A stretch of 64,000 nt of DNA, from positions 1-64,000 of the forward strand of contig QPGO01000256.1 in assembly GCA_008632985.1 (NCBI GenBank). Reading direction: 5' to 3'. How positions within the stretch are numbered: position 1 is the first letter of the stretch; every line of letters starts with the position of its first letter. Positions 1-60,104 of this stretch are shown here, one piece after another. This DNA comes from Psammoneis japonica. Lineage: Eukaryota. The translations under genes were made by a program, and so were the position numbers. The notes under the pieces were generated by a model, which saw nothing but the letters and a program-made list of their open reading frames with translations, made no database searches and was not told the origin of the DNA.

Positions 1-1808
1 ATGAGTTGTTGTGATTGAACAAGACTTGTTGTCTTGGAGAAAACCAAGGGACATCTTTTGCTTGCTTTTTTGTCTGGTCAGAAGCTCCAAGAAACACAGA
101 AAGCACAATGGGGTTGTCCACTGGGCAGACATGGCCAATGGACACACCACAGTGGGAGTTCTTCCTTCCTGTGCATTGACCAGAAGTGCTGTCACAGTCC
201 TTGCACATGCAGGTGGAGGAGGAAGAATCAGCAGGAGTTTTGCCTGCTTTCTCAGACAGAGCCTTGAAATCCAATCAACCAAGGATGGGGTGACCCTCAT
301 TGACAATCTAAAGGCTGTTGTTGTGGTGATTTTTGTTTGGAAAATGCACATCACAAACAAGATGTTGCGCTGTCACAACAAAAGTCAACAACAGATCTGC
401 GAACATCCAAGCACATCATCATGTGATGACAATGTTTCCCATCAGGGTGTGTTGATGCTTGACTCCTGTCAAGATTGGGCGGTGCAAAGACAACACAAGC
501 AAGTGTGTCCAATGCTTGCAGCTGGCCCAGCCAAGCTTGTAGAGTGATGAAATGTTCTTCCAGTGTGATTGTTTGGGTTCTTCAAGCATTCAATCACTTT
601 GGCTCAGATCGGAGATTGCTCAGAGGTGAGATGGGCCAACAGGAGATGGTGGTCTGTGCCTCCCCCCTGTGCAAGTGGGGGGGTTGTTCTGCATTGCTGC
701 TTCTGCGACGCTCAGTGTGCCGCAGAAGCAGCACTCATGGCTGTGAACACCTGACGAGCCACAGCAACCTCATTTTTTTCTTTCATCAATGTTGCACTGC
801 ACGTTGATGAGCAGAGAGTGAGTTTTTGCTTGCAGCTCATGCCGCCCACCCTTTGTGGCTCTCCAGCAATGGCTCGAATTCCGGGTCCCCGGAATTGTGA
901 GCTCTGGCTCAAGGTCTGGTGTTTGTGGCTTGCGCCACAACCAACCAGAGTGCTCAGTCAGGAGCATCACCACCAGAGAAGAGCAGAGTCAGAGAACAAC
1001 AGAGGGCAATCAACCAGTGATTGCATGGCATGCAACCTCCATGTGTTGATAAAAACCCGCGTGATGACCTGTGGAAAATTACAAACGTGAAGCACCGCAA
1101 AAGGTGTGGCAAATGAAGATCATTTGCCACAGTGCATCACGCAGTTGTGTTGCAATGACAAGATCCAAATGACCATGGGGGATCCTTTGTGTGAGGCTGG
1201 AACTGGAAAGTTGATGGCACCAGAAGTGCCAACCAACCAGCAGGCAAAAGGGGTCTCCATGGCCAGCCACTTTCAGCTTGCGGAGGGCTGCAAATGTCCT
1301 CCTTGTCATCATCCAAGTCCTTGGTTGATCTAGATGAAACCCCTTGCTCTGATCTCAGCATGTGCAACATCACTCAATGGGGTGTTTGAGGCATCTTTGT
1401 TGGATTCCTGCCCAACCAGGCTGGTCACTGGACACATGTTCCTCAAACTGGGTGCTTGGTTGTCAGCATTTGTGCTGCTTTTGACAAGCACTTTGTTTCC
1501 ACTGGTCTGCCCCACAATGAACTTGTGTGCTGATGCAATGCCCGCTCATGGACATGCACTTTTGTGTTCCAACCTTGTCAATCAACTGCATGCGCTGGTC
1601 TTCCTTGCACGAAAATGGATTTTTCCTTGCCACGGCAGAAGCATCGGCAACTTGCACAATGTTGGGGAGTTTCAAAGCCATCAAAAGCCATCCATTTTAC
1701 TGGCTTGCTCCTGCATGGGTGCCACACTGCACCTGGTTGTTGCTGATCAGGAGTCATTTTGGTGATGTGACAAACTTTTGGCACAGACTTTTTTCTTCTC
1801 AGTTGTGC

Positions 1809-1810
<2 letters not shown>

Positions 1811-1838
<28 letters not shown>
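1811..1838 (+). repeat. (CA)14 microsatellite
   Basis: Read directly from the sequence. Confidence 0.95.
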
Positions 1839-1839
<1 letters not shown>

Positions 1840-3059
1840 CAAAAAACAAATGCAGGTGCTCCCAGATCATTGGATGGAACTCCTCCTCAAAAATGCGCAC
1901 ATTTTCTCAAATTAAAATTGAACAGATTCCAGCCGATGGCTCCCCAAAAGTGAGCAAAATGTGTCAACAAGGCCTCCGACAGATCAACCATTTAGTTGCC
2001 TGTCCATTTGCCCTCATTTCCCATGGCAAGATGATGATGCTTGTGGAGCTCTGAATTTATTGAGTTCCTTTTTTAGTTGATTTGGTGAATTTCTGTGTTT
2101 GCCATGTGCACTGCATGGAAAAAATGCGCGACCCAAACTCAACTGGGAGTGCCAAATTTGGCTGACGCAGCCAGAACTTTACACACAAACTGTGGGGTTC
2201 AGTGACAAAATTAAGTGGAACTGTCCCCCAGGCATGGGCTGGGCAACATGTGACCAAAACTTGTTGTTCTCCCAATGTCTTTCACATTTTCTCTTCTTCA
2301 AAGTGTCAAGATTAACAAAAACTTTGAATGGAGGATCGCAAAGGCTGTCACTTTGTCCAGGATGATTGAAGCCACCCAGCATTCACATCTTGTGTCATCT
2401 ATTTTTTTCTCATGCTGGCTCAGGAGAATTGAGGCACAATCTCCGAACAATTTAACCACTGCAAATGATTCCTCTGCTTGGCAATGTTGTGCAGTGCCCA
2501 CTCATTGCCGATCTCCCCATTCACATGCATGGCCTGCCTTGCACAAGAATTGGACAGCATTGAAAATGGCAAACCCACCAGAAGGGCATCGTGCAAAGCA
2601 TTGCAGCAAAGTTTCTGCAGCTTCATGAGTGATTGGTTGAAAAATGATCAATGCTTGCAAAGAACACAAGAAAGAGACCAAGCTGGCATTTGGCAAGAAA
2701 CCAGCTGGCTTGACAAGCAACAGAGAATTGAATGAGCACAAATTGACAAAATGATCTTGAGTGCTGCTCACAGCATCAAGGTGCAAGTCTCATCAGTCTC
2801 ACCAAAATTGGCCATTGGTGAGATTCATGAAATCCAAGACAAGGTTGGCATGTGGAAAATGAAGTTGAGTTCTGCTGTTTGCCACCTGCAAATTTGCACA
2901 AGAAAGGAGTGGCCCAAAGCACTGCACAGCTTTTTTTTTGCACTGGCACCAAGGCTGCTGCAAATCCTTACAAGCATTGGCTGCAGCACAAGAGGCCAGT
3001 GCACCAGATGATGAAAATTGCAAATGAAAAGCAATCTCTAAGATTCCAAGTTTCTGCCT

Positions 3060-4060
3060 GCATCCCATGTCTGGAACTTGCACCACCAAAACCTTGGGAA
3101 CCATCATCCAATGAGTTTGCACACAGAATGAGGATGTTGTTGAGCTGAAGGTCAACACTGTCACCAGCTTGTCTCAATCCTCAGGGCTCAGGGCTGAGCC
3201 CAAAGGGGGACCAAAAAGGGGGATCAAAGGGGGTGTGTGAATGAAGCACATTGCATTTCTGCAATCCGGCCATGCAATGGTGAGTTTAACCACCTGGAGG
3301 AGATCACAGTTGCTCTGGTGATGACTCTGCATTGTACAAACACAAAGCAGCCAATGCAACCATTTTCCATCTTGACATGAAAGGGGATGGCTTGCATGAC
3401 ACATGTGACCAAGACGTGTGTGAGGATGATCATGAGAAGCACACAGGCAGGTGTTGCAGGGACAAGGCTGCTCTTCTGAGTCCACGGGTGATCTCTTCAT
3501 GGACAATGATGAGAATGTGGAACCATTTGAACTCAAGTCATCATGTCCCAAGGCAGAAAAGCATGCACCTGAGGAGATGGATGAACATCTCATGGCCAAG
3601 GTGATGCTGCCCAGGGGTGGCGAGCTCCCAATGCAAAGGACAAGAGAGCCACAAATGTGACTCAGATGGAATGCCAACCAGAGCTGGGAATTCCAACCCA
3701 TGTTGGATTCCTGACTGTGCAAGGTGGAATTTCCGGATGGATCCACTGATGCATTTGCAGCACACACTGTTGCTGAGAACTCATTCTCCCAGACAGACAA
3801 TGAATGTGGGACTTGCCAAATCGTGAAGGAGACAGTGGGTCACCAAAGTGATGCGTGCACCATTGAAATGGACAACAGTTGTTTCACTGCCTGTGATGGC
3901 AGTCAGAGACCCAGACAAATGACTGTTGGCTCCAAGTTGAATGGAAGGATGGCACGACTGACTGGATGCCTTTGGCTGAAGTCAAGGAGTCCTTTCCCAT
4001 GCATGCAGCTGAGCATGCAGTTGCAATGAGATTGCCAGTGATGTGAACCATCTTTTAACT
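3060..4060 (+). mobile_element. Ty1/copia LTR retrotransposon pol remnant (region between integrase and RT), frameshifted
   Basis: Fragments 'DEHLMAKVMLPRGGE', 'EFPDGSTDAFAAHTVAENSFSQTD' and 'WKDGTTDWMPLAEVKESFPMHAAEHAVA' resemble diatom copia pol motifs (EV.LPRGGE, VEFPDG...AN.IAEN..SQVD, WKDGTT.W.PL...KES.P...AEYAVAN). Confidence 0.75.
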
Positions 4061-5873
4061 GATGAGTGCAAAGACTCATTCCATCCAGTGTGTCACTGGA
4101 TAAAAACCACCAATCACATCATTCAAGTCCCAATCTCATTTGAGCACTTGGTTCTTGCACTCTGTCACAAGTTCCCGGAGATTGACAACAAGGTCATCAA
4201 CATCATCGTCAACTTCATCCAGAACATGCTTCACTTCTTGTCCTTCTCCCGGGGTTCCCCTTGAAAACCTTGAACAAGAATCCACAAAAAGGCAAGGTGT
4301 GGTCAACCAAGATGCAGCATTGTTTTGTTGTGGGTGCTCCCACTGACCTGCATTGATGCCAATGAGCCAATTGGCTTTTTGTTGATGGAACCTCTCAACC
4401 TGGGATCCAAGAGCCAGTTGCTGAGACCAAGAAGTTCTCTGACTTCTTGGAGGGGATCACTGACTCTCAGTTGGAGATGAACATCATGAACAGCAACAAG
4501 GGCAAGTCCTCAAGCTTTGAGCTTTGCCAGCAGTGTGCAAAGTCTCTTGTTGAGAATGCCAAGAACTGCAAGATTGGCAACATGCCATTGGCTCAGTTCA
4601 GAATGAATGCAACCCTGGAAAGAAGGGTGAGCTCAGCAGGAAGAAGCAGGACAAGGAAAAGTCCAGGATTGGGGCTGGACACCATCTGAAAGACAAGTGG
4701 CTGGATCTGGCTCTGGAGGAATGAGCCAAGGTCAATGAGCTTCATGAGAAAAAAAGAAGGAGAAGACTGAGTGGAAGCACAAAGCACAAGGCTGCAGCTG
4801 TTGATGCCAAAGACAACAATGCTGCCAGGAAGATTGGCAAAGTCTCTGGCAACCCTCTCAAGCCTGACAAGACTGAAACCAAGCCCAGTGCCAACGGTGA
4901 CAAGCCTGCACCTGAGGAGCCAGGAGCTGAGGCCATGGGTGGAGCCATGCTTGTGCACATTTTGGGAGGGTGGTGCATGAGCCCAAGCCTTTGGTTGAGG
5001 ATGCAATTGAACACAAACCCTTGAAGGAGAACAACAATCAGGAATGATTGTTTGCACTGACAAGCAAAAGAGGACTCTTGTGACATTGCCCATTGGCAAC
5101 AACAGTTTTCATCTGACTTCCTCACATGGTGTTGCTGTTGGCGCTGCTTCCACCAGTTTTGTCAATTGAGTGTGTGCCTTGTCCTCAGTCAACACTGAAT
5201 CTCATGATGGAATGTCTTGCAACAAGCTTGACTTGCATGCAGACACATGTGTTGCTGGATCAGCCCATGTCCCATTTTCTAATCCCAGCCATGTCATTTC
5301 AGTGAGACCACACTTGGATGAGTGCGAGCTGGTTCACAATGTCCCCACCCAGTCAGTCACCACTGCCCAGACAGATCCCTCAAAATGTCAACCATGCTTT
5401 TTTACATTGCATGAGGCCACACATTTTGGGGACCAAGTGAAGAACTTGTTGACATGTCCCAACCAATTGCAAGCCAACAGCTTGACTGTGGATGATGAAC
5501 CAAGAAAGCAGTTTGACAGCACAAGTTCACACTCAATCTCATTCCTGGACTTGAAAGTCTGGATTCCTCTCAAACTGAATGGAGTTGACTTTGCTCACAA
5601 ATCATGCAAACTGACCAACAAAGACCTGAGGAACCACCATGTCTGGAACTTGCATCACTGACACCTTGGAAACCATCATCAATGAGTGCACACAGAACAA
5701 GGATGTTGAGTTGAAGCTCAACACTGTTGCCAGTTTGTCTTGATCATCAGGGCTCAGCCCAAAGGGGGGTCACAGGGGTGTGAATGAAGCATGTTGCATT
5801 TCTGCAATCTGGCCATGCAATGATGGGTTTAACCACTTGGAGGAGATCACTGCTGCCAGTGATGACTCTGCAT
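3068..5873 (+). repeat. Diverged direct repeat pair, ~3068-3333 and ~5641-5873
   Basis: Both copies run tgtctggaacttgca...cagggctcag...gtgtgaatgaagca...tgatgactctgcatt, indicating two copies of the same copia family. Confidence 0.85.
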
Positions 5874-6758
5874 TTCACACCCAAGATTTTGTCCAGGTGG
5901 TGGGGCATTGGTCTAACTGCTGAATGGAACACACTCAGGGTGACCACTCAAGCCAGAGTCAGGAGCATCTGTGCACCATCTGAGAGGAGGAAGGTGTGGA
6001 AGAAGACCCTTGGCTCAAGTTCCCAGTGTGTGTGACAAGTTTTGTATGGACCAAATGTTTTTGAAAGTTGGGTCAATTCATGGGGACATGACAGCTTGAT
6101 TTTCACAAACGGCCAAGGATGCTGCTGTTTCCACCCTTGGGACTCAAAGGGGAAGCATCCAGACTTGAAGATGTCTTTCATCCATGATGCTAGAGTTCCT
6201 CTTGAGGTTGTGCCTGATGGCACACCCAAGTTGGCTGACAGACACATCAAGGAGATCAGCAAGGAACACGGGATCAAACAGGGAGTGACTGTGCCCCATG
6301 GTGGCAGAAGATGTCAGAGAGGACCTTGAAATGCTTGATTGTGCCATTGAAGGTCTTGTGTCAGTTCCGAGTGCACTTTCTACACCATTCAGCAGCCGGT
6401 GTTTCCATGACGGCATGCATGCTGAAGACTCGTTCCATCCAGTGTGTCACTGGAAAAAAATGTCAATCACATCATCTGAGTCCCGCTTTCCAGTCTTGTT
6501 TGAGTGCTTGGTTCTTGCACTCTGTCATGAGTTCCTGGAGATCAACTGCAAGGTCATCAACATTGTCATCATCATCATCAATTTCATCCAGAACATGCTT
6601 CACTTCTTGTCCTTCTTTGGGTTCCCCTTAAAAAATCTTGAACAAGAATCCATGAAAGGGCAAGGTGATCAACCAGATGCAGCATTGTTTTGCTGCGGGT
6701 GCTCCCACTGACCTGTGTTGATGCCGATGAGCCAATCGGCTTTTTGCTGATGGAACTC
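4063..6758 (+). repeat. Diverged direct repeat pair, ~4063-4395 and ~6420-6758
   Basis: Both copies share aagactc.ttccatccagtgtgtcactgga...ttcatccagaacatgcttcacttcttgtccttct...gggtgctcccactgacctg. Confidence 0.85.
4390..6330 (+). mobile_element. Ty1/copia gag-protease-integrase remnant
   Basis: Gag-like 'DFLEGITDSQLE...FELCQQC', protease-like 'KLDLHADTCVAG...HFGDQVKNLLTCPNQLQAN' and integrase-like 'LSRWWGIGL...TLRVTTQ' and 'FIHDARVPLEVVPDG...HGIKQGVTVPH'. Multiple stops and frameshifts. Confidence 0.75.
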
Positions 6759-7246
6759 TTCCTTGTGATCATCTGAGAGATCTTCAGCTCCAAAACTGAC
6801 AGCTCTCATGACAGTGACCATTTTGCCATTTTTTTCATCACTCTTCCCCCAGAGCATGGCAGCAGCTTTGTACCTCCCATCTGAAGGAATGTGTGGCTTC
6901 ACTGCTGGAAACAATCTTGTGCAGTGAGGTGTCAAGCACTCTTTTCCATGCTCGCGAATCTCGACTGGGTTCCTGTTGTCATGTTCAATGTCCCAAATGA
7001 GTCAAGAGCAAGGACTGTTTTTGTTTCCCTTGTTTCTGCCCTGACCAGCGTGAATCCCTCTGTGAGCATTGAAAGTCATCCGTTCAATGCTCTGTGCAAA
7101 TGGAGAATGACTCCACTGCACTTGCAATTTCTTCATCAGTGCAAATGCTTGGTGAACATCATCAGGAGATTCTGACAGTCTCAACAGTTGGGTGTTTCAA
7201 CATGCTTCCTCTGCACTGAGCAAGACAAAAGAGATGACCAGCCACA

Positions 7247-8130
7247 ATGGCATTTTCTCTCACACCTGCTCAGGCCATCACAGGCATCTTGACTTTGCAG
7301 AGAAAGCTCACAGAGCCATCTGTGCAACAAGGCAGCAGTGGAGAAGCTCGTGGAGGGTGGCTTCGACTGCACACAGAGGCAAAACTGTTTCAGTTCCTCA
7401 AAACCCTCAAGAACAGAGCTGCAGAGAATGGGTGGAATGAAAACAATGGGATTTTGACAATTCCTGATGATCCGATGTGGACATCATGTCTGATGCCACC
7501 AACTTGTTGTGACACACTGCAGTCAAAAATGGTGAGGTGGACCTCATCTGGCTGCGATTGTGAGTGCACGCACATTGATCAACCGGCAAGGCTGGCACAC
7601 AACACAAAGATGCTGTGCCACCTTCTCATGAGTGCATTTTCTGAAGAAGTTAAGACTGGAATTTTGGCATGGGAAAAGCAACACAAAATTCTCAAGAACA
7701 ACAAGATGCATCCATCGGGAAACCTTCTGTTGAGGGTGAAAATCAAAGAAAGTCACCTCGACGCCAACACAACTGCATCAAGCATCAGGATGGCACTTGG
7801 CAATCTTGACAAGTGCACTGGCATGGTGTTGAGTAACATTGCCAAATTTGGTCAGTGCACACTGCTCTTGATGCAAGCTCTCAAGTCCTGTGGTGAGATG
7901 ATGGAAGACCTGCGGCTGGACTCATTCAAGGAACACCTTGCTGCACCTGACAAGTCATTTGGCAATTGTGTCCATTGCAAGCACAGCAAGCACAATTGAG
8001 GACATGACATGGATTCCAATGAACTTGTGAACCTTGCAGACAACAAGTGCAAGAAAAGATGGTGGAGATGGAGGAATGGAGAGCACCACCCGTCAAAGAG
8101 AAAAAGATTCTGGCTCTGGAAGCAAGGTTG
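7247..8130 (+). mobile_element. Ty1/copia gag remnant (second family)
   Basis: 'FSLTPAQAITG', 'PSGNLLLRVKIKESHLDANTTASSIR', 'LADNKCK' and 'EKKILALEA' resemble diatom copia gag. Positions normally Tyr read Cys or His. Confidence 0.75.
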
Positions 8131-27676: not shown

Positions 27677-27779
27677 TGATGTTTGCCAACGAGAGTTCTT
27701 GGCTTTTTCCAGCATTTTGTCAGCAAATCGCATGGTGATGGCACTGTTCATCTTCACAATCGCCCGTCGAATGTGAGAA

Positions 27780-51118: not shown

Positions 51119-51281
51119 ACGTCACACAGGTTGATTTACAATGACATTGACTTTTCAGAAACACGACGCTGCGTGGAATAATTTATTTAACTACACGACG
51201 TCAGCAAAGCCATCAAGTATTTAAAGTATTGTTGAATTTGTATCAATTCTCACGGTGACGTGGGTGGGAATGTTGTGACGT
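51119..51281. promoter_or_regulatory. Cluster of four TGACGT/ACGTCA (CCRE-like, bZIP) elements upstream of delta-CA
   Basis: ACGTCA at 51119 and 51198, TGACGT at 51256 and 51276. They lie ~200-360 bp upstream of the delta-CA ATG in a divergent promoter. Confidence 0.65.
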
Positions 51282-51487
51282 TCGTTTTCAACGGATCCTT
51301 GGTAGACGGCTGTGCTGCCGGTTTTCAATTTTCGCGCGCGCGAATACTGATCGCGCGTCTCGCAGGATGCCCCACATTTTGGAATTTTGCGGATTTCCAC
51401 AAAAAGCACCTGCAATGTGCAGCGAGCGCATCCGACTCTGAGAACATTAAGAACCTTCTCGTTAACATAATCTAGCGACTAAAAGTC

Positions 51488-52338
51488 ATGGCTCTGTTCT
51501 CATGGGAAACGATGCGATATCGACTACGACTAATAATTGGCAGAAACAACATGAATCGAAACAGACAACTCATGATGATTCTTGTGTTATTGTTGTTGCT
51601 CGTGTGGCTCAACACTCACTACCTAAAGCCATACAACTTTGATCGATCCAAGGAAACGGTCTATTTCATGTTTACAACAATTCCTCCTCATGAGCACCGC
51701 GTAACCGAAATTATGAGAATGATGAAGCGACAAACACTGGTCCCGAATGCCGTGATTTTGACAATCCCAAAGACGTACCAACGCTTTCCCAACGAAACCA
51801 TCCATGTGATGCCCAGCGATTTCTTGCGTGTCCATGTTACCGAAAACGATGCGGGTCCGCTTGGAAAGTATCTAGGTGTTGCATTGGCTCGAGACGAGGA
51901 TATTGTCATAATTTCAGACGATGATGTCGACTTTAGCAATACATTCATCGAGGATGCGGTACGTGCGATGTGCGCGATGATTCTTCCAAAAAGAGTACAA
52001 TTTATTCCGCAAGTATTGATCAATTCTTGTTGGATCCCAAGCACCCAACAAAACGTTTTGATGGAGTTATGGGGTATTCTGGAGTAGTGGCACGAGCATT
52101 TATGCTGCGAGGCTTGCCGGAATTATCGCCCACTGGACCTTGCTTTTTGGCGGACGATGTTGTCGTGTCGTATCACGCTGTGCAACACGGTTACCACATT
52201 AAGAGATTTCAAAAGCGTAATGATGATTCCGATTCCACCAAGGAGCAACATGATGCAACCAGCATTCATGCACATCACATCAAGGAGGGCTTTCAAGTCA
52301 ATGACAAGTGCTCGGAAGCTCTGTTTTCAATGAAATAA
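51488..52338 (+). CDS. GT-A fold glycosyltransferase-like type II membrane protein, interrupted near 51960 (intron or frameshift)
   Basis: N-terminal TM, 'FTTIPP', 'QTLVPNAVILTIPKTYQRF', 'DAGPLGK' and 'IISDDD'. It continues in another frame with 'DGVMGYSGV...CFLADDVVVS'. Confidence 0.65.
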
Positions 52339-53343
52339 GAATTGCTGTGGATGGAAAGACGCGCTTCTCCAGGCAGGATATATTATGCGATACTCAAGCG
52401 TCCTTGCAACATGTTGCACTTTCAAACAGATGTCAACGTCCCACCATTGACTTGGTTGCGAGCGAAATAATGGCACTCGTAGCTTTCTGGAATGCCGGAT
52501 TGCGTACTTACTACCGGACATAACCGCATCTTTGTGTGAAGGAGATGCGGCGAGGATGGAAACCCTAGTACATTCGAGCTCAAGTTGGAACGCTATGCGC
52601 CAGATATGCTGCATTGTTTGGTACTGTTCTCGCGCTTGCCGAAAGCGTGAATGGAAGCGACATAGGCTTTTTTGCGCCAAACCCATCTTGTTGATGATTC
52701 GTCCACTTACAGTGCGGATTGGCTTTGTGAGAAGTTTGTCGAGTGCCGTGAGAACATCATCAAGGTGCAGATAGCTCGTGAGCAGCTGTTGTAGCAACGG
52801 GAGCTTTTGTTGTAGCTCAAGGATGATGAAATCAATGACGACATTCGTGACTTGATCAGAAGCTTGATTTGTTTTTGAAAACCAACAAAAACATTGCTCT
52901 GTGGGAAGGGGAATGGGTGTGGGAACACCCGGATGTTGCTGGAAATGATTGGAGGAGTAACGGTGCACGTGTGGGAATCCTTCTCACATTTACAGTCACA
53001 GTTCTTCTTCTTGCACCGAGTGTGGGTGATTCAGAGAATATCAAAGTCTTTTTGGGGGGTACAAGGCCGCAATCTATTTGTTGATGACTCCGGTGCTGAT
53101 CAAGGTCGCTCGAGGTAATCGCACTAGTGGTTTAAAGGTGGCGACAACAACGGCACTGATTCCTCATTGCTAGTTACGTATACTCAATCTTCCACGTATG
53201 CATTCAAGGAATTGGACGTTTCTATTGGTTACTTGGTGACTGAACCAATCAGAACGTCTGCCAGAAGAATGGCATATGTAACCGACAACCATAACGCGGG
53301 AAAGCCCAAGGCGAGAACGTTTTGACAACTTGGTTGGTTTAGC

Positions 53344-54875
53344 ATGGGATTGACTACACCAAATCCTTCCTCTCTGCCCTCGACAAAGTCACCGACACAA
53401 GATCCCATATCGCCTCCATCGACATTAGCTCCGGCACCAACACTGACTCCGCCTTCCACCCAAGAGTTAACACCATCTCCCACAGTCGACCCGACTTCTC
53501 CACCTGCTGTAGCTCCTACCACTTCAAGTCCTATCCAAGCTTCCACGGTAGCCCCCACCACTCCAACTAGTTTGCCGCGAATGCCGGTCCAACGTTCAAT
53601 CCAACTCCACCTCCTACACCTCAAGCTCCAACACCCAGTCGTACCAGTGGTGGTTTGTCGCGAAATGGGATCCAAGTCTTGCATGCGAAAACAGCAGATG
53701 ATTCTTGTCGGTTCCGTATCCTTGTCTCGTGATGGTAGTGTCATGGCTATTAGAGCAGTGCAATCTTCCAGTCCCGGCTATGTTGTTGTGCAACGATACA
53801 ATCACGCTACAAAAGAATGGACGAACATGGGTCAAGAATTAGTTGGACAATTCTGACGACTTTGGCAATTCCGTGTTATTGAATGGTGACAGCACAGTTC
53901 TTGCTGTTGGAGTGTATTTGAATGGCAGTGACGGAGTGAATGCAGGTCGCGTTCGGGCATTTGAATACAACTCGAATCGTTGGGTCCACCTCGGTAGCGA
54001 TATTGCTGGACAAGACGCTTGTGATCATTTTGGCATTTCCGTGTCGCTCTCAGACGCTGGAGACATTCTTGCCGTGGGAGTGTATCGGGATGTGACGGTA
54101 AATGGCGAGATTTCTGGATCGGTTCGATTGTTTCAACATGACGGTGACATATCATCCTGGAATCAACTTGGACTGGATTTGATTGGTGAAGCTGCTAATG
54201 ATCAATTTGGAATTTCCATTTCCTTCAATGCGGTGGGAACCATTGTTGGCGTTGGAGCGAATAGGAATGATTCGGGTGGCGTCAATGCAGGGCAGGTATC
54301 GGTGTTTCGAATACAATTCTGCATCATCAAAATGGGATCCATTGGGTGACCCAATCAATGGCCAAGTCGATTATGGAAGGTTTGGATATTCTGTTTCTCT
54401 TGATGAAAGTGGTCTGATCATTGCTGTTGGTATATATAAAAGCGAGAGCTTTGGTGTATGCATGCGACCGCTATCGACGTTGAAATGGAATCAACTTGGC
54501 CAAACTCTACTGACGCAACAGCTATTTTGGTGAATCGGAAACGTCTTGGCAGTCGGAAGTCGTTGGCATGCCGTCAATGAATTAAGATCGGTTGATCAAG
54601 TTCGAATCTTTCAATACGACACCAATGCAGACGAATGGAAGCAAGTCGGTGATCCTTTAAATGTCGAGTCCAGAGATGGCGAATTTGGATCTTTTGTGTG
54701 CTTATTAATAGACAGAATGATCGTTGCAGTTGGTTCATGGACACCGGCTTTGGTTCCGGTTCCGCTTATGTATTTACGGCAAACTACAATTAAAAAAGAT
54801 TTGCCTTTTATTTCTTCCTTTCCTGTCGTCCACACTGTATTTGCAATTCATTTCATTGTGTCGCAAGGACAGTGA
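53344..54875 (+). pseudogene. FG-GAP/integrin-alpha-like beta-propeller protein with Pro/Thr linker, multiply frameshifted
   Basis: Repeats of the type 'W.QLG.D..G....D.FG.SVSL...G.ILAVG' are spread over four consecutive ORFs in different frames. Confidence 0.75.
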
Positions 54876-54889
54876 CCAGTTAGATCTTT

Positions 54890-56830
54890 AACGCCAACAC
54901 GGGCTGTGCAGAGCAGTGTGCACGGGCCTGCACCACGCGATCGAAGGTGGTGGACTTGGCGAGCTAGAGCTGGGGCTGGACACACTTTCGAGTGGGAGGT
55001 GTGGCCGTGGCCGGTTGCCTTGCTCTATTCTTTGCGCATTGAAGGTGAGACTGCCATGAGTGGCAAGGAACAGGCAGTCAAGGTTGCATGTCAAGTGTGA
55101 TGCAGGTTGTGTTGGCTTGCCCAATCAGAAGGCAGCTTGACATCGGTGAGGACGGTGGGTCATTGTCTTTTCTTTTGCAGCATTCTCCAGCTTGCAGCAG
55201 GTGGAAGGCCAATCCAGGACAGGTTGATGATGGCATCATCTGGCAGGCTCAGGTTGGTGTCAACCAAGGCCTGAGCATGATGTGCAGTTTGGATGGGCAG
55301 CAGGAGCTTGACCCAGTTGGGAGGTGGGTCATCATCCTCTTCAAGCAGGCACTCCATGTGCACATTGATCATGGGCCCATTGTGCCATGTGGAGGAGCTG
55401 GTTGTGGGTCTGGGCCCACAACTTGGTGAACATCTTCATGCTTTATGACATGAGAGATTTTGTCATGAACATGTGAAGCAGACATCAGGCCATGGCTGTG
55501 GCTGAGGCATCCATCTCCAAGGTGATGGGCAAAGACTTGGAGTGTCAGGATTTTTTCTTTGATGCCTGTGAAGAGAGGGTCTTCAATGCTGATGTGGGGT
55601 GGGAATGGGAATGAGAAATGGCACTTGGCCTTGCCATGTCCATGGCATGGGCTCACCATTTGGTGATGGCTTGGCATGTCTTTGCCATTGCAAGGTGGGG
55701 ATCAATGCAGGAGAAGTGATGGCAGGCATCATGCATGGCATTCACCAAGGTTTTGGCTGTGGCTGAAGTCAAGAAAGAGTGGCAAGAAGGTTGGTTTTAG
55801 TGCTGAGCTGTTTTGTGAGCATGTGTCAGACAGCAGGTTGGCTGGTCCAGGGATGCAGTGCAGGTGAGGAACATGGCAAAGGCTGCATGGTTGGAGGCTC
55901 CCAATGTGCAGCATTTCCTTGGCAGGTTTCATGGTGGTGATGGGTGTTTTTCCACATTGTAAAATGGCCAGCATGTTGTTGCAGCATGTGTGCATGGTCT
56001 TTTCCCATCCTGTGTCCATTGATTGCTGATTGGCCAGCAACCAACTTGTGCAGGACTGCTGCACCAGCTGTCTCCAAGTCTCAGTGGGCAACAGTGCTGG
56101 CAGGGTTGGAGTTGTTGGGCATGACTGTGTCTTGGATGCTGGTTGGCAAGGGCAGTTGCCAAGTCATTGATGGGAAGGAGAGTTGGTGGAGCTGGGCACC
56201 AGGGGGGAGTGCACCCCCAAAACCTGGCTTGACAGTGCTGCACACACCACAGCAGTGTCAATCTGTGGCTGGAAAAGCTTGGCAGCCCAGTGGGTCTGGA
56301 GGTGATGTTGAGCACCAGGAGAGTGTGAAGATCTTTGAGTTGTTGGCAAGTGTCAAGTGTGCCAGGCACTGGTCAACTGCTGAGAGCAATCTCTCTTGTT
56401 GGTGGGTGACAACTGTGTCATGCTGGCTGATGAGTGAGTCAATGAGGGATCTGCCCCTTGGTGGTTTGACAATGGACACCACCATCATGTGACATCCCTG
56501 CCCTTGACGAGCTTTTTAGGAGAGACAGTTTCTTGCTGTCAGCTCTCATCAGCTGCTGTGTTGAGGCAACAAAATGCTTGATTGTTGATGTGGAAGAGGG
56601 AGGAAGGGATGTTGCAGGTGGTTGAGATGTGCCTTGCTGCCTTGTTGCACTCTGTTCCAATGACACCACCACTGACAAGTGCCATCAAAAATGGGCTTTG
56701 TTTCTGAGATTTACAGCACGGACACCAAGTGTCCATCATGAAGAAAGAACAGTGCCGCAATTGTCACTGCCTTGACAAAAAAGATGCCACACTGCAGTGT
56801 CTTCATAAACTTGTCCAGCTTCTTCATGGA
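54890..56830 (-). mobile_element. DIRS/Ngaro-type tyrosine-recombinase retrotransposon remnant (RNase H and YR)
   Basis: RNase H-like 'CNNMLAIL...ITTMKPA..MLH' and 'HCIPGPANLLSDTCSQ'. YR-like 'AFHLLQAGECC' (F.YLLR.GEY) and 'AKNRATG...VCPAPALARQVHHLR'. Confidence 0.65.
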
Positions 56831-57299
56831 GAAGCAACATTTGGAAGACAGATCAAATGCTGGGTGCTGTTGGCACCTTTTAAGATTTGAGACTGCAGAG
56901 GATCATGGATGACACACAATTTCAAATCATCAGTTTGCCTTGCACATTCACAAAAAACAACTAAATTTGCATGCATTGATTGACTCCAGTTTGGGCTTTT
57001 TTTTGCATTGTTGCTTTCAAAGAACAGGCAGAAGTGTCGCCGGTGCACAAGGCACAAGCAGCAGTTGGACATGTCATTGGTCCTGCTCANATGCACCTCA
57101 CATGTCACATGCTGTGAAAATCTCCCAACATCCAACATGTCAATGAGTCTGCCAACAACTGCCCCCCCCCCCCCCCCCCCTCCTGCAACATTGCTCACCA
57201 AACACCCAATGCTCACTCAATGCTCTCCACCTGCCCAATGCTCACTGCTCAGGCTCCACCTTCATTGATCACAACTGTCATCTGACACCTGATGAATCA

Positions 57300-57563
57300 C
57301 CATCAAACACCTCAGCAATGCATGTGTGTTGCCAACCACCTCCAGCAAGTCACACGTGTTGCCACTCACTTTCAGCAATGCACAGCCAACATCCCATCTT
57401 CTCACACCACAGCCTCACCAAATCAACTCCACCCTCGCCATCAAACACCTTCACCGATGCATGTGTGTCACCAACCACCTCCAGCAAGTGACACTTGTTG
57501 CCACCCACTTTCAGCAACATCCCATCTTCTCACTCCACAGCCTCACCAAATCAACTCCACCCT
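57300..57563. repeat. Tandem duplication, ~130-140 bp unit x2
   Basis: ccatcaaacacct...ccaaccacctccagcaagt...ccacagcctcaccaaatcaactccaccct occurs twice. Confidence 0.9.
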
Positions 57564-58199
57564 GGATGGCTGTCAGCATCAGCCACAAATGCTGCAACAC
57601 AAACAGCCCTTCCAACCCCTTTGACACTGTCCTTGGTGCACCCCCTCCCTCCTGCACCTCTCGACAACCCTTCTCAGAAACATCCATCAATGGCAACAAC
57701 ATGTCTGACAATGCATGAATGGTGAACCTTGGCAATGACAGCAACGACAACTCCCCCAATGATGACACTAATGCCACCAACATGATGTCACAGCATGACA
57801 TTGACCACTTTGCCACCCTCACTTCATGGGTTCATTTCCACTGTCCCAAGCACCTTCAAGATTGGAAGTGCATTGAGGCTTGAGCTGTTGAAGACAACTC
57901 TGATCTAAAATCTTTCCACCAGCTTCTCCAACCCCTTCCATGACACATGGTCCCTGCCGGAACAAGATGCCACCACCCAAGACCTCCCTGAGGCAGTCTG
58001 AGCTCACCTGCATGCCGGGCATGAAGATGTGGACCTGCAATTTCTCCCACAAGATTTTCTCTCTCAGGCTAATCTCCACTCTTGCCAGTGGTGCAATTCC
58101 ACTCAGCATCTCCACTTGCACCCCAGAGACCTGCACAATCACCTCACCTGCCACAACCCAGATTGCACTGCCACCAACTCAGCCCTCGTAGCTGCACAT

Positions 58200-59540
58200 C
58201 TGCCACATGGCACTGCCTGGCCGCATCAGCCCTTCAATGGCTGGCCACACTTGAAGCCACACCTCTGCCTTTTCATGCCTCCATTTGCTGCAAGCTCTCC
58301 CCATCTGCATGCCATGAACTGTTCATTGCCCTGCACCATGTCCTTACCTGGATCATTGAATCTGCCAACCACACTGTGCCACAACTCAGATGATCATGTT
58401 CCACCCTGCGAGTGCACATCCACCCCATTCTGGAAATTGCTGCTGCTCCCATTTGAAACCCTCATCCTTGCTCCACCCCACCACCTGCCAATGCCAACCT
58501 CAGGAAACAACCATCTGCTTCCTCTGTCTCCTCAATCCACCTTGAACTGTTCTGACAAGGATGCATCCAAGAGCAACACTTGTCTCCCTCTTGTTCATGT
58601 CCTGCACCCACCCCATGCCCCACAACCAGCACTCCAAGCCCCTGCTCCTCCCATGCAGCACACTCCATCTCCACCATCCCTGCCCTGCATCTCTGATGGT
58701 GAGCTCTTGGCAGCTCTCAGCAAGTGCAAACCTGGCACCACCACCAGCCCATGTGCTGGCTCCACTGACTTCCTCCAAGCACATGCCCTCTTCAAAACTG
58801 CCATCCCAACAAAGGCACAATTTTGCCCACACCTCTCCACCTTCAAGGACTTTGTGCTCCTCATTCAAACTGGGTCAACCCCACCAGACATTCAATCCCT
58901 CATTGCTGCCAACTGCTTTGTCACCCCACACAAAGATCCTGCCAACCTCAACAAACTCCACCCCATTGGCTGTGGCACTGCAGTCCACCACATTGCAGTT
59001 GCCCTCATTGTGACCACCAACACACCCATCCTCACCAAATGCCTGCTTCCTGATGGTCAGTTTGGCATCAAAAAAGGCCTTGACTGACTCGCACATGCCA
59101 CACATGCCAACGTCAAATGCCACCTTGACACTTGACACTGGCCTCACCACACCAACCCTTGCTTTCCTCACCCTCGACCTTTGCAAATGTTCCAACAGCC
59201 AAGGCCCTGCGCATGTCACCTTTGCACTTCTGTCCCTTTTCTTTCTGCTTAAAAGGCACTTCCTCTTTGCTCCCTTGCTTGCTCCTCACCTCAACAATGC
59301 TTGGCCCCAGATCCACTCCGCCTCATGCTGTGGTGCAAGCTGCACCTCCCTGTCTCACCCAACCACCTCAACTCCATGACTTGCCCTTCTTGCAATGGCA
59401 CTGCCGACCCCTGCAGTGATCAAGCTTTCTGCTGCGGTCCCTTGGACACAAAACTGCCCTTGTCCAAATGCCATCGGAGATGGCCTCTTCACCACATTTC
59501 AAACACTGGCTCCTCTCTCCGGCATCTGTGCCAACTCTTC
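58200..59540 (+). mobile_element. CRE-like non-LTR retrotransposon remnant (RT N-terminal half and C-terminal zinc knuckle)
   Basis: 'HKDPANLNKLHPIGCGTAVHHIA...LLPDGQFGI' resembles K....LRPIG.G...RR....Q.G. 'CPSCNGTADPCSDQAFCC' and 'NAIGDGL' resemble C..C....D..G.H...C and HN.IRD.L. Confidence 0.65.
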
Positions 59541-59675
59541 CACCATCCACCACTGCTGTCACTTGCAGCAGCAGTTGGTTTTCCCAACCAACACCACATT
59601 TCAATGTTTGGCGGTGGTGCTGCAAGGCAAAGTCGGTGCAAGCTAGCTGTGATGCCATTGTCTCATGAGCACACC

Positions 59676-59853
59676 TGTTCTTTTCCTCTCTAGATCTGCA
59701 AGTGTCTTGCAGGAGCAACAAATCAGAACTTGCTTGGACCACAACATAAAACCATTGTCTGCAGTGTTCTTTTCCCCTCCAGATCTACGAGCATCTTGTG
59801 GGAGCAACAAGTCAAAACTTGCTCGGACTGCAGCATAAAACTGTTGTCTGCAG
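59676..59853. repeat. Tandem duplication, 89 bp unit x2
   Basis: Units start tgttcttttcc at 59676 and 59765 and align without gaps. Confidence 0.92.
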
Positions 59854-60104
59854 TGTTTGAAGATGTGGCAAACGACACACAGGACACTTCTTTCGGAAGA
59901 GAGATTTGCGCCCTGCGCAGGAAACGACATTGAGAGATGACAGTAAAACAATGTCATGTTATTGATTTTGATTAGAAAAGCTACTTTACATTGTGCACTG
60001 TTGTTAAAGAGAAAGGCTAAATGATTGTTCCACACAAACAAGGATTCCCTCTTGTTGTTTCATCGGAAAACACCACGTGCTGATCCAGGTCTAACCCGAA
60101 TCAT

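What the first reader, a model, noticed from the sequence alone, without database searches (positions are those of the whole stretch)
1..59940. Candidate undescribed repeat-targeted hypermutation system: TpA (plus CpG) converted to TpG/CpA in transposon blocks
Seen: about 35 kb of this window, in six blocks, has lost nearly all TA and most CG, while the interleaved genes keep both. Hand count: 0 TA and 0 CG in 1-300 versus 9 TA and 22 CG in 9061-9360. The signature spans unrelated element classes (copia, DIRS-like, CRE-like, TIR elements, gene fragments) in both orientations, so it was probably imposed on chromosomal DNA rather than during one element's replication. Known: CpG->TpG/CpA follows from 5mC deamination, and diatoms methylate TEs at CpG. 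Fungal RIP is C->T and increases TpA, the opposite of this pattern. Inference: a second, strand-symmetric A:T->G:C process acts at TpA in repeats. Candidate mechanisms are a DNA adenine deaminase (TadA-type enzymes prefer TA), error-prone Pol eta-type repair (A->G at WA motifs), or a thymine/adenine modification. I know of no described eukaryotic genome-defence system with this signature, but could not search the literature.
Basis: partly seen in the sequence, partly recalled or inferred. Interest (0 to 1): 0.95.

Follow-up and report, generated by a model that had tools for sequence, protein, structure and literature searches.

The report
TpA-erasing hypermutation in diatom repeats
More than half of this diatom DNA stretch is dead transposon and pseudogene sequence in which almost every TA and most CG have been mutated to TG or CA, a rare kind of targeted genome defence so far reported only once, in an unrelated alga.

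Summary
Six sharply bounded blocks (36.9 of 64 kb) have TA o/e 0.03-0.11, CG o/e 0.12-0.41 and TG/CA o/e 1.3-2.0. The genes, a 4-kb non-coding stretch and a nested young TIR transposon keep normal values.

It is a mutational process that acted in place:
- The total YpR frequency is conserved and the other 12 dinucleotides are unchanged.
- Repeat copies, including tandem ones, differ most often by TG<->CA.
- A reverse-transcriptase relic and a DUF1501 pseudogene have His/Cys where relatives have Tyr or Arg, and never the reverse.
- k-mer contigs of a read set from the same sample carry the same sequence, and their differences from the window fall largely in the same classes.

TA loss has sharper edges and runs ahead of CG loss. 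It hits both strands without coordination and prefers 5'-TAY. AA is untouched, which argues against Pol eta.

The organism is a diatom. The process is not undescribed: a 2026 preprint measured TpA->TpG/CpA hypermutation of integrated viruses in the chlorarachniophyte Bigelowiella natans. My literature searches found no diatom report. The enzyme is unknown; a DNA adenine deaminase is my leading guess and thymine oxidation the main rival.

The parts
1..8915 (.). Depleted block 1: TA o/e 0.06, CG 0.20, TG 1.81, CA 1.73. No recognisable domain. Internal repeat pairs 3065-3333/5637-5874 and 4071-4391/6425-6756.
   Evidence: X1 contigs cover it at 98.5-99.1% identity.
12028..13648 (.). Depleted block 2: TA o/e 0.03, CG 0.21. 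It begins within 30 nt of where homology to an expressed paralogue begins (11999).
   Evidence: X2 record 9 lies on 11999-12720 with 111 differences.
12029..12565 (-). MgtC-like gene fragment: a hypermutated duplicate of a gene that is expressed elsewhere in the genome.
   Evidence: PF02308, E 2.4e-08, 34.8 bits (cut-off 31.4)..
18103..26762 (.). Depleted block 3: TA o/e 0.04, CG 0.24. Its left end lies in a roughly 110-nt very high-copy repeat. Contains a weak ankyrin-repeat ORF (25972-26721 +) and tandem copies that differ by TG<->CA.
26763..27676 (.). 914-nt TIR element with 21-nt perfect inverted ends, flanked by TGAT on both sides. Composition is normal (TA o/e 0.84, CG 1.30). It is nested in the depleted DNA and is unmutated.
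27677..29508 (.). Depleted block 4: tandem-repeat array, less completely converted (TA o/e 0.11, CG 0.41). Copies of the same family just outside the block (29589-30034) keep TA.
38144..41800 (.). Depleted block 5a: TA lost (o/e 0.10) but CG largely kept (o/e 0.66).
39814..41325 (-). DUF1501-domain pseudogene with an in-frame TGA at 40666-40668 and a frame change near 40201. Tyr is 0.47% of aligned residues against 2.73% in the homologues.
41801..49134 (.). Depleted block 5b: TA o/e 0.07, CG 0.19. No recognisable domain.
54890..59643 (.). Depleted block 6: TA o/e 0.06, CG 0.12, TG 2.01, CA 1.79. A single N at 57090.
58002..59084 (+). 361-codon open frame. It is the relic of the N-terminal part of an RVT_1-type retroelement protein (homology 57933-59312), with 0 Tyr and 0.3% Arg. 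The conserved Tyr and Arg positions now read His or Cys.
8916..12027 (+). Normal island: CLC chloride-channel gene. Introns at 9557-9647, 10421-10506 and 10863-10939 are seen in a spliced contig.
13649..18102 (.). Normal island: unknown ORF, MUS81/ERCC4-SAP gene (+) and ribosomal protein L11 gene (-).
29509..38143 (.). Normal island: 4 kb of AT-rich non-coding DNA (29509-33600; TA o/e 0.64, CG 0.76), then a cNMP-binding protein kinase gene (-).
49135..54889 (.). Normal island: delta carbonic anhydrase (-), an FG-GAP repeat ORF and others.
59644..64000 (.). Normal island: unknown 600-codon ORF (-) and a ShK + 2OG-Fe(II) oxygenase gene (+, runs off the window).

Best explanation
The window comes from a diatom chromosome. 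The DNA between its genes is mostly dead mobile or duplicated DNA: a reverse-transcriptase retroelement relic, pseudogene copies of host genes, tandem and high-copy repeats, and much that can no longer be recognised.

Shown here: after this DNA arrived or duplicated, and while it sat in the chromosome, nearly every TpA became TpG or CpA and most CpG became TpG or CpA. The changes fell on either strand at random, site by site, within sharply bounded tracts. Genes, ordinary non-coding DNA and a younger transposon insertion were left untouched.

Inferred, on the two processes: two processes act on the same silenced tracts.
1. A fast TpA-specific A:T->G:C mutator with the preference 5'-TAT > TAC > TAG > TAA. 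It is the same kind of process measured directly in Bigelowiella natans.
2. A slower decay of methylated CpG, which fades towards the tract edges.

Inferred, on the enzyme: the TpA mutator is enzymatic. My leading guess is a DNA adenine deaminase of the TadA/ADAT fold that turns A into inosine, which is read as G, in chromatin marked as silent or foreign.

Inferred, on the effect: every Tyr codon and two of the three stop codons contain TA, and CGN Arg codons contain CG. The pair of processes therefore destroys coding capacity irreversibly, working like fungal RIP but with a different chemistry.
For: Composition:
- TA+CG+TG+CA is 0.239 of dinucleotides in depleted DNA and 0.245 in normal DNA.
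- The loss of TA (-0.038) and CG (-0.036) is matched by a gain of TG+CA (+0.068).
- The other 12 dinucleotides keep similar o/e values (differences of 0.13 or less); AA is 1.19 against 1.18.

The changes happened in place and after duplication:
- 12 non-overlapping repeat pairs inside depleted DNA, several of them tandem, show 207 differing sites.
- 52 of these are adjacent double differences. Random placement gives 22 on average and at most 39 in 2000 shuffles.
- 26 of the doubles are TG<->CA, the commonest dinucleotide difference.

Polarity:
- RT relic against 68 relatives. Of 323 homologue Tyr cells, the window reads His in 101, Cys in 69 and Tyr in 0. Of 548 Arg cells, it reads His in 186, Gln in 52, Cys in 41 and Arg in 3.
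- At the 89 consensus columns 70 are identical. Both Tyr columns read CAC or TGC, and all 3 Arg columns read CAC.
- The relatives average 2.85% Tyr.
- DUF1501 pseudogene against 10 homologues. Of 117 Tyr cells, the window reads His in 24, Cys in 11 and Tyr in 13. No homologue His or Cys is aligned to a window Tyr.
- In a repeat family that straddles the 29508 edge, outside copies have TA where inside copies have TG or CA in 13 cases, against 3 the other way. The alignments overlap, so these counts are partly redundant.

The sequence is real:
- Logan k-mer contigs of run X1 cover all 30 bins, at a word depth of about 60 in genes.
- They hold the depleted blocks at 98.5-99.9% identity (records 1, 2, 3, 5, 7).

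The process is recent:
- Only 40 of 706 difference rows were visible. Among about 31 events in them, 3 are TG<->CA doubles, 3 are TA (window) against CA, and 7 are CG against TG or CA.
- Differences run at 0.9-1.5% in block 1 contigs, against 0 in 2499 nt of a genic contig.

Properties of the mutator:
- No strand coordination: runs-test z between -0.5 and +1.3 in the six blocks.
- Flank preference among residual TA: RTAY 7 of 147 against 344 of 1131 in normal DNA; YTAR 70 of 147 against 210 of 1131. p = 2e-18, and 8e-09 against a non-coding baseline.
- TA loss leads CG loss: 13 windows against 2, and block 5a.
- CG o/e falls from 0.70 at the edges to about 0.25 beyond 300 nt inside, while TA is 0-0.1 throughout.

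Precedent (read: abstract, all of Results and Discussion, and passages elsewhere):
- 230 of 231 single-nucleotide mutations in two integrated viral regions of B. natans were A->G or T->C; the authors state that all of these GC-biased changes fall on TpA.
- TpA-depleted coding sequences there are enriched for RT and DDE domains.
- The authors propose an ADAT2-like deaminase.

Organism: the MUS81 gene's best named relatives are pennate diatoms at 43-45% identity.
Against: - No enzyme, base modification or chromatin state can be seen from sequence. Adenine deamination and thymine modification predict the same strand-symmetric outcome and complementary flank motifs, so the enzyme step is a guess.
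- There is no whole genome. I therefore have no genome-wide link to repeats, no family consensus and no deaminase inventory.
- X1 may be the read set the assembly was made from. It excludes an assembler artefact or a long-read base-calling artefact, but it is not an independent sample.
- Only 40 of 706 difference rows were visible. Whether these differences are allelic, between strains or from close paralogues is not settled.
- Strict column-level polarity rests on few columns: 5 of 5 in the RT relic, and 2 of 3 Tyr columns in DUF1501.
- The flank preference assumes that the ancestral TA contexts resembled those of the normal DNA. Some residual TA may also be new mutations rather than survivors.
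- The HMM places the edges at TA sites, so the sharpness on the depleted side is partly built in.
- A nested TIR transposon is unmutated, and parts of block 1 are single-copy at 80% likeness. So 'all repeats are targeted' and 'only repeats are targeted' are both unproven.
- The B. natans precedent is a preprint. It does not mention CpG or flanking bases in its text, and its supplements could not be read.
Confidence: 0.7

Rival explanations
1. Same phenomenon, different chemistry. A thymine-modifying enzyme (TET/JBP-type hydroxylase producing 5hmU or 5fU, or a related mark) acts on the T of 5'-R-T-A in silenced DNA. The modified T mispairs with G or is repaired with errors, giving T->C on either strand.
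For: - The outcome is strand-symmetric and the flank motif is complementary: 5'-RTA is the complement of 5'-TAY. Sequence alone cannot separate this reading from adenine deamination.
- 5hmU made by a dedicated enzyme silences transposons in dinoflagellates (PMC11572971; only the search listing and the start of the abstract were seen).
- Recalled, not checked here: base J and dinoflagellate 5hmU are enriched at TpA steps.
Against: - No evidence here that diatoms carry such an enzyme or mark.
- 5hmU pairs normally with A. A near-complete, transition-only conversion would need an additional mutagenic step.
- The only study with direct mutation data favours a deaminase, and that too is only by inference.
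Confidence: 0.2
2. Inherited or selected composition. The elements evolved or arrived already poor in TA and CG, for example under selection against UpA and CpG in their RNA, and nothing happened to them in the chromosome.
For: CpG and UpA are jointly under-represented, with TG/CA over-represented, in RNA viruses and cytoplasmic mRNAs (PMC3829696; title and start of the abstract only).
Against: - o/e values of 0.03-0.1 are far beyond such biases.
- Conserved Tyr and Arg positions of the RT are replaced, and the frame has 0 Tyr. Relatives have normal Tyr and Arg.
- Host-gene duplicates (DUF1501, MgtC) carry the signature.
- Tandem copies differ by TG<->CA.
- Differences from the read contigs fall in the same classes.
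Confidence: 0.03
3. Technical artefact. Heavily modified bases at TpA and CpG were miscalled during long-read base-calling or polishing, and the true sequence has TA and CG.
For: - Systematic consensus errors at methylated motifs are known for nanopore assemblies (recalled, not checked here).
- The protein-level Tyr->His/Cys pattern would look the same under this artefact.
Against: - k=31 contigs of run X1, with even word depth of about 50-60, reproduce the depleted blocks at 98.5-99.9% and the genes at about 100%. Noisy long reads would not give this.
- No chemistry I know of converts both TA and CG to TG/CA.
- The transcript-like contigs of X2 match the genic parts.
Confidence: 0.03
4. Error-prone repair synthesis by a Y-family polymerase (Pol eta type, A->G at WA motifs) recruited to repeats.
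Against: - AA, the other WA dinucleotide, is unchanged: o/e 1.19 against 1.18. AT is nearly unchanged: 0.87 against 0.93.
- Conversion is almost complete and limited to TA.
- There is no clustering along a strand.
Confidence: 0.03
5. Editing before integration. ADAR-like A->I editing of double-stranded transposon RNA, or APOBEC-like deamination of cDNA, is fixed by reverse transcription.
For: - ADARs prefer a 5' U.
- Hyper-edited retroelement copies are known in animals (recalled; discussed in the B. natans preprint).
Against: - TG and CA products are equal and randomly interleaved, so both DNA strands were hit.
- Tandem copies made in place, and a boundary that lies inside a repeat array, show independent hits.
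- The 3' neighbour preference T > C > G > A is the reverse of ADAR's (ADAR preference recalled).
- It does not explain the CG loss.
Confidence: 0.02

Closest known systems
TpA hypermutation of integrated viral DNA in Bigelowiella natans (Mettrop et al., bioRxiv 10.64898/2026.01.13.699255, 2026)
   Same: - Only A:T->G:C transitions, at TpA, giving TpG or CpA depending on the strand.
- Confined to foreign or silenced DNA; ordinary genome spared.
- The long-term trace is TpA depletion with CpA+TpG enrichment, in clusters that hold RT/DDE genes and many unannotatable ORFs.
- The enzyme is unknown; an ADAT2/TadA-type deaminase is proposed.
   Different: - Different supergroup lineage: a diatom (Stramenopila) rather than a chlorarachniophyte (Rhizaria).
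- Here the conversion is near saturation (TA o/e 0.03-0.11, against 0.45 for the B. natans NCLDV region) and covers 58% of the window.
- The identifiable targets are a retroelement relic, host-gene duplicates and repeats, not viruses.
- It is accompanied by CpG decay, which the preprint's text does not mention.
- A 3' flank preference is seen here, and none is reported there.
- No direct rate measurement exists here.
Fungal repeat-induced point mutation (RIP; RID/DIM-2 dependent)
   Same: - Irreversible mutational inactivation of duplicated or mobile DNA in the chromosome.
- Transitions only, both strands, sharp tract edges, and duplicated host genes hit as well.
- Diatoms carry DNMT4 enzymes related to RID whose function is unknown (PMC9998398, passages read).
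   Different: - RIP is C->T (mainly at CpA) and creates TpA. Here TpA is destroyed and the main change is A:T->G:C.
- Dependence on homology and a premeiotic stage are untested here.
- A boundary inside a repeat array and an unmutated TIR element do not fit simple homology triggering.
CpG decay by deamination of 5-methylcytosine in methylated transposons
   Same: - CG->TG/CA, with both products equal.
- Stronger in the interior of silenced tracts.
- Diatom TEs are CpG-methylated by DNMT5a (PMC9998398, abstract and passages).
   Different: - It explains only the CG half of the signature.
- TA loss is faster, has sharper edges, and occurs without CG loss in 38144-41800.
APOBEC3 / ADAR hypermutation of retroelements and viruses in animals
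   Same: Deaminase-type, context-dependent transitions used against mobile or foreign nucleic acid. ADAR favours a 5' U.
   Different: Those systems act on single-stranded cDNA or on dsRNA and leave strand-biased, clustered tracks. Here both strands are hit without coordination, non-retro sequences are affected, and the 3' preference differs.
5hmU-based transposon silencing in dinoflagellates (PMC11572971)
   Same: A base modification on A:T pairs directed at transposons in a SAR-group alga. It is a possible upstream chemistry for T->C at TpA.
   Different: It is an epigenetic mark and is not reported as a mutator. Only the listing and the start of the abstract were seen. No such mark is known here.

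Membership tests
B. natans-type TpA hypermutation | Changes are A:T->G:C transitions at TpA, giving TpG or CpA. | tested here: met
   - Dinucleotide budget.
- Tyr (TAY) read as His (CAY) or Cys (TGY), never the reverse.
- TG<->CA differences between copies.
The evidence is indirect: no de novo events were observed.
B. natans-type TpA hypermutation | Confined to particular tracts of foreign or silenced DNA, with the ordinary genome spared. | tested here: met
   - Six sharp blocks.
- Genes, the 4-kb non-coding stretch 29509-33600 and a nested TIR element are normal.
Tested within this window only.
B. natans-type TpA hypermutation | Mutation rate raised by orders of magnitude, measured in mutation-accumulation lines. 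| not testable with these tools
   Only a hint: contigs differ from the window by 0.9-1.5% in block 1, against 0 in 2499 nt of a genic contig, and largely in the same classes.
B. natans-type TpA hypermutation | Both strands are hit. | tested here: met
   TG and CA counts are near equal, and the runs-test z lies between -0.5 and +1.3.
Fungal RIP | C:G->T:A transitions that raise TpA and lower CpA/TpG. | tested here: not met
   TpA o/e is 0.06 and TpG/CpA 1.7-1.8, the opposite direction.
Fungal RIP | Triggered by sequence duplication (homology-dependent), so the tract equals the duplicated segment. | tested here: inconclusive
   For:
- Duplicated host-gene pieces are hit.
- Block 2 starts within 30 nt of the start of homology to an expressed paralogue.
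Against:
- The 29508 edge lies inside a repeat family.
- Parts of block 1 are single-copy at 80% likeness or more.
- The TIR element is unmutated.
5mC-deamination CpG decay | CG->TG/CA in methylated DNA. | tested here: inconclusive
   - The signature is present: CG o/e 0.12-0.41, and Arg CGC read as His CAC in 3 of 3 consensus columns.
- Methylation itself cannot be seen.
APOBEC/ADAR-type editing of single strands | Strand-biased, strand-coordinated clusters of one transition type. | tested here: not met
   No strand coordination or bias was found.
Pol eta WA-motif mutagenesis | A->G at both TA and AA. | tested here: not met
   AA o/e is 1.19 in depleted DNA against 1.18 in normal DNA.

The most novel reading that the evidence does not exclude
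Diatoms and chlorarachniophytes share, by descent within SAR or by convergence, a dedicated RIP-like genome-defence system. Its effector would be a natural enzyme that edits A:T to G:C in double-stranded chromosomal DNA at 5'-TAY, directed to silenced or foreign tracts with base-pair-sharp edges. It would erase every tyrosine codon and two of the three stop codons of invading elements. It would work independently of CpG methylation and faster than CpG decay. That would be a new class of eukaryotic genome defence and a natural DNA adenine editor.
Probability: 0.35. Interest if true: 0.95.

Novelty: new member of a known kind. Interest (0 to 1): 0.8.

Why it matters
- Breadth. If the same TpA-specific mutator works in a diatom and in a chlorarachniophyte, targeted A:T->G:C hypermutation is not a curiosity of one alga. 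It would be a widespread, or repeatedly evolved, counterpart of fungal RIP in ecologically dominant phytoplankton.
- The enzyme. It would be a natural context-specific editor of A:T pairs in chromosomal DNA. To my knowledge (recalled, not searched) none has been characterised, and engineered adenine base editors had to be evolved from TadA.
- Testable handles the preprint text does not give: a 3' flank preference (T > C > G > A), edges sharp to tens of bases, independence from CpG decay, and near-saturated targets that include host-gene duplicates.
- Annotation. Such tracts defeat domain-based TE annotation: 0 TE domains in 265 ORFs here. They also inflate 'unknown' ORFs, because TAA and TAG stops vanish.
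- Evolution. The tracts create strong local heterogeneity in mutation rate and composition. This matters for diatom repeat annotation, population genetics and the reading of genome evolution.

Tried and rejected
- Whole genome: none is held. No genome-wide scan, TE consensus or deaminase inventory was possible.
- Earlier notes of this scan: none.
- Pfam on ORFs from depleted DNA: 38 of at least 150 aa, 150 and 77 of 75-149 aa. There were 0 TE domains in 265.
  - Only MgtC, DUF1501 and a borderline Ank hit reached their cut-offs.
  - Five other weak hits fell below their cut-offs.
  - Four ORFs of at least 150 aa in depleted DNA were not scanned: 21473-21937 (-), 40732-41199 (+), 43940-44404 (+) and 58546-59010 (+).
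Read-through with stops as X was too long to print. A shorter ask, three plus-strand frames of 1-4500, gave 0 families.
- The copia-like ORF 1334-1762 found no homologues with the 'longer' setting, so the copia claim is unverified.
- Metagenome scans: a 24-nt piece of the high-copy repeat gave 0 hits. P0256 matched 393 patterns but no relative.
The cluster look-up for P0256, P0238 and P0206 could not be made because the database was off, so the origin of P0256 is unknown.
- tRNA and Rfam scans of the window found nothing.
- The strand-coordination test was negative.
- Column-level polarity in DUF1501 gave too few Tyr columns (3) to stand alone.
- Run search: no RNA holder is listed. X2 has no cover over most bins of block 1. 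I do not use this as evidence of silence.
- Literature. Subscription journals and bioRxiv supplements are outside that library.

Full report
**1. The observation**

Positions 1-300 hold 0 TA and 0 CG (31 TG, 32 CA); positions 9061-9360 hold 9 TA and 22 CG.

A 500-nt profile and a two-state HMM on TA positions give six depleted blocks, 36,879 nt in all:
- 1-8915
- 12028-13648
- 18103-26852
- 27661-29508
- 38144-49134
- 54890-59643

Within the blocks TA o/e is 0.03-0.11, CG o/e 0.12-0.40, and TG and CA o/e 1.3-2.0. In the rest of the window TA o/e is 0.47-0.88 and CG 0.89-1.30.

Pooled over depleted DNA, TA is 147 against 2392 +/- 33 in mononucleotide shuffles, and CG is 569 against 2203 +/- 36.

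The TA edges are abrupt. At 8915 there is no TA for 179 nt before the edge and 12 TA in the 75 nt after it. At 26852 there is 1 TA in the 400 nt before and 46 in the 400 nt after.

**2. What the DNA is**

The normal islands are genes:
- a CLC channel
- MUS81/ERCC4-SAP
- ribosomal protein L11
- a cNMP-binding protein kinase
- a delta carbonic anhydrase
- an FG-GAP ORF
- a ShK + 2OG-oxygenase gene

There is also a 4-kb AT-rich non-coding stretch, 29509-33600, with TA o/e 0.64 and CG 0.76.

The best named relatives of MUS81 are the pennate diatoms Seminavis, Cylindrotheca and Amphora at 43-45% identity. Unnamed relatives reach 54%. The organism is therefore a diatom and not Bigelowiella. No whole genome is held.

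In the depleted DNA, 265 ORFs gave 0 transposon domains, and three read-through frames of 1-4500 gave none either. What could be identified:

- **An MgtC-like fragment**, 12029-12565 (-).
- **A DUF1501-domain pseudogene**, 39814-41325 (-). Its nearest relatives are fused DUF1800-DUF1501 proteins. It has an in-frame TGA at 40666-40668 and a frame change near 40201.
- **A weak ankyrin ORF**.
- **A 361-codon frame**, 58002-59084 (+). It has 68 relatives in an exhaustive HMMER search. Ten of the 11 I scanned carry RVT_1, and their homology to the window runs from 57933 to 59312. This is a retroelement relic.

Word depth in the read contigs shows that some stretches are highly repeated. The bin 18010-18676 has depth 2828 and 668-1334 has 503, against about 60 in genes. 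Others are now single-copy at 80% likeness or more, for example 1335-3335 at about 53.

**3. It is mutation, in place**

*The budget.* The four YpR dinucleotides sum to 0.239 in depleted DNA and 0.245 in normal DNA. TA falls by 0.038 and CG by 0.036, while TG+CA rises by 0.068. The other twelve dinucleotides keep similar o/e values (differences of 0.13 or less).

*Copies mutated independently.*
- Twelve non-overlapping repeat pairs lie inside depleted DNA, several of them tandem and so made in place. They show 207 differing sites.
- 52 of these are adjacent double differences. Random placement gives a mean of 22 and a maximum of 39 in 2000 shuffles.
- 26 of the doubles are TG<->CA.
- This is what independent hits on opposite strands of an ancestral TA or CG would produce.

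*Polarity in the RT relic*.
- Of 323 relative Tyr cells, the window reads His in 101, Cys in 69 and Tyr in 0.
- Of 548 Arg cells, it reads His in 186, Gln in 52, Cys in 41 and Arg in 3.
- Of the 89 consensus columns, 70 are identical.
- The two Tyr columns read CAC and TGC, and the three Arg columns read CAC.
- The relatives average 2.85% Tyr, and their consensus keeps the RT box SYxDDT.
- An active element cannot have had the window's composition.

*Polarity in the DUF1501 pseudogene*.
- Of 117 homologue Tyr cells, the window reads His in 24, Cys in 11 and Tyr in 13.
- No homologue His or Cys is aligned to a window Tyr.
- At strict consensus columns the numbers are small: 2 of 3 Tyr columns read His.

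*Across a boundary.* In a repeat family that crosses the 29508 edge, outside copies have TA where inside copies have TG or CA 13 times, against 3 the other way. The alignments overlap.

**4. It is not an artefact, and it looks recent**

Logan k-mer contigs of run X1 come from the same sample and may be the assembly's own reads. They cover all 30 bins of 1-20000 and carry the depleted blocks at 98.5-99.9% identity:
- record 1: 30 differences in 2029 nt
- record 7: 2 differences in 1780 nt
- record 5: 4800 nt across two block edges, with 13 differences

A genic contig has 0 differences in 2499 nt. This excludes an assembler artefact or a long-read base-calling artefact.

Only 40 of the 706 difference rows were printed. 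Among about 31 events in them, 3 are TG<->CA doubles, 3 are TA in the window against CA in the contig, and 7 are CG against TG or CA. Over all X1 rows, 460 places are transitions and 204 transversions.

So the same classes of change are polymorphic within the sample. Whether the variants are alleles or very close copies is not settled.

Run X2 behaves like RNA, since its contig skips three CLC introns. One of its contigs lies on 11999-12720 with 111 differences. The MgtC-like fragment therefore has an expressed paralogue, and block 2 begins within 30 nt of where that homology begins.

**5. Properties of the process**

- **Both strands, no coordination.** TG and CA are near equal. The runs-test z lies between -0.5 and +1.3 in the six blocks.
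- **TA only, not WA.** AA o/e is 1.19 against 1.18.
- **Flank preference among the 147 surviving TA**.
  - RTAY is 7 of 147, against 344 of 1131 in normal DNA and 77 of 296 in normal non-coding DNA.
  - YTAR is 70 of 147, against 210 of 1131.
  - p = 2e-18, and 8e-09 against the non-coding baseline.
  - ATAT is 0 of 147 and TTAA 34 of 147.
  - Pooled over strands, survival by the adenine's 3' neighbour is T 0.39, C 0.62, G 1.10 and A 2.07. The target is therefore 5'-TAY, or equivalently 5'-RTA for the thymine.
- **TA loss and CG loss are separable.**
  - 13 of 128 windows are TA-low with CG kept, against 2 the reverse.
  - Part 38144-41800 has TA 0.10 and CG 0.66.
  - CG o/e declines from 0.70 within 50 nt of an edge to about 0.25 beyond 300 nt, while TA is 0-0.1 throughout.
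  - The TA edges are partly defined by the HMM itself.
- **A nested 914-nt element is unmutated.** It spans 26763-27676, has perfect 21-nt inverted ends and is flanked by TGAT. Its TA o/e is 0.84 and CG 1.30. Either it inserted after the process had acted there, or not every transposon is a target.

**6. Mechanism**

*Shown.* There was a post-insertional, in-place, strand-symmetric and site-independent conversion of TA and CG to TG/CA. It lies in sharply bounded tracts of dead mobile or duplicated DNA.

*Inferred.* Two processes act:
- A fast TpA-specific A:T->G:C mutator.
- A slower CpG decay through cytosine methylation. Diatom TEs are methylated by DNMT5a, and many diatoms also carry RID-related DNMT4 of unknown function (PMC9998398, abstract and passages).

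*Guess.* For the TpA step I favour enzymatic adenine deamination in DNA by a TadA/ADAT-fold enzyme. Their natural tRNA target is also an A preceded by U; this is recalled, and it is argued in the preprint. Thymine modification at R-T-A gives the same sequence outcome and cannot be excluded. What marks a tract, whether homology, small RNAs or chromatin, is open.

*Consequence (inference).* All Tyr codons and the TAA and TAG stops contain TA, and CGN Arg codons contain CG. Coding capacity is therefore destroyed, and ORF-like frames lengthen.

**7. Comparison and novelty**

bioRxiv 10.64898/2026.01.13.699255 describes mutation-accumulation lines of Bigelowiella natans. I read the abstract, all of Results and Discussion, and passages elsewhere; the supplements are closed.
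- 230 of 231 single-nucleotide mutations in two integrated viral regions were A->G or T->C; the authors state that all of these GC-biased changes fall on TpA.
- The rate was about 6e-7 per site per generation.
- 124 TpA-depleted, CpA+TpG-enriched clusters were found.
- RT and DDE domains are enriched in TpA-depleted coding sequences.
- An ADAT2-like candidate is proposed.
- Its text mentions neither CpG nor flanking bases.

The process is therefore not undescribed. The present case is a new member in a different lineage. It is near saturation, its identifiable targets are a retroelement relic, host-gene duplicates and repeats, and it adds new descriptors.

Eight accepted literature searches found no diatom report.

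One public protein, P0256 (160 aa), is 33% identical to the window's relic. It shows the same Tyr-free, Arg-poor, His- and Cys-rich composition. Its source could not be looked up.

**8. Verdict**

I put 0.7 on the best explanation as stated, with the enzyme step a guess within it, and about 0.9 on a real mutational process. Interest is 0.8.

Noticed in passing
window 26763-27676: A 914-nt non-autonomous TIR element with 21-nt perfect inverted ends (GACTTGTTCCAGACTTAGGTG) and TGAT on both flanks. It is AT-rich (GC 0.37), has normal TA and CG, and sits inside hypermutated DNA. Its copy number and family are unknown.
   Followed up: partly
window 18048-18160: A repeat of roughly 110 nt with very high word depth in run X1: about 7680 at 18103, against about 60 in genes. 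It lies directly beside the 5' end of the L11 gene and straddles the edge of block 3. Its left half keeps TA and its right half has none.
   Followed up: partly
window 39814-41325 (-), and proteins P0001-P0030: The nearest relatives of the DUF1501 pseudogene are long fused DUF1800-DUF1501 proteins (850-2000 aa), from mostly unnamed metagenome and read-assembly records. Only the DUF1501 half is detectable in the window. Upstream on the same strand lies an unexplained 311-codon frame, 41855-42787 (P0205), which keeps Arg but has almost no Tyr.
   Followed up: partly
protein P0256 (public record, source unknown): A 160-aa predicted protein, 33% identical to the window's RT relic, with 0% Tyr, 0.6% Arg, 5% His and 5% Cys. 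It reads LCPVGIG and ALHHL where relatives have LRPIGIG and A.RR. It is another hypermutated copy in some public assembly. Several other short hits (P0232, P0238, P0259, P0273) lack Arg but keep Tyr, as expected from CpG decay alone.
   Followed up: partly
window 9087-11371 (+): Run X2, labelled 'DNA?', gives a contig that skips 9557-9647, 10421-10506 and 10863-10939. It behaves as a transcript of the CLC gene and defines three short introns.
   Followed up: no
window 14047-17326: Contigs of X1 and X2 join 14827 to 16772 (skipping 1944 nt inside the MUS81 ORF) and join 14047 to 17326 on opposite strands. The laid pieces have many differences, so these are probably paralogous genes rather than splicing. 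Unexplained.
   Followed up: no
window 1802-1851 and 57090: A CA/TG microsatellite that the read tool skipped, and the single N of the window at 57090 inside block 6.
   Followed up: no
depleted blocks generally: With TAA and TAG gone, only TGA stops remain, so long spurious ORFs abound: 227 ORFs of 75-149 aa in 36.9 kb. Gene finders would be expected to call many 'hypothetical proteins' here that are rich in His and Cys and lack Tyr.
   Followed up: partly
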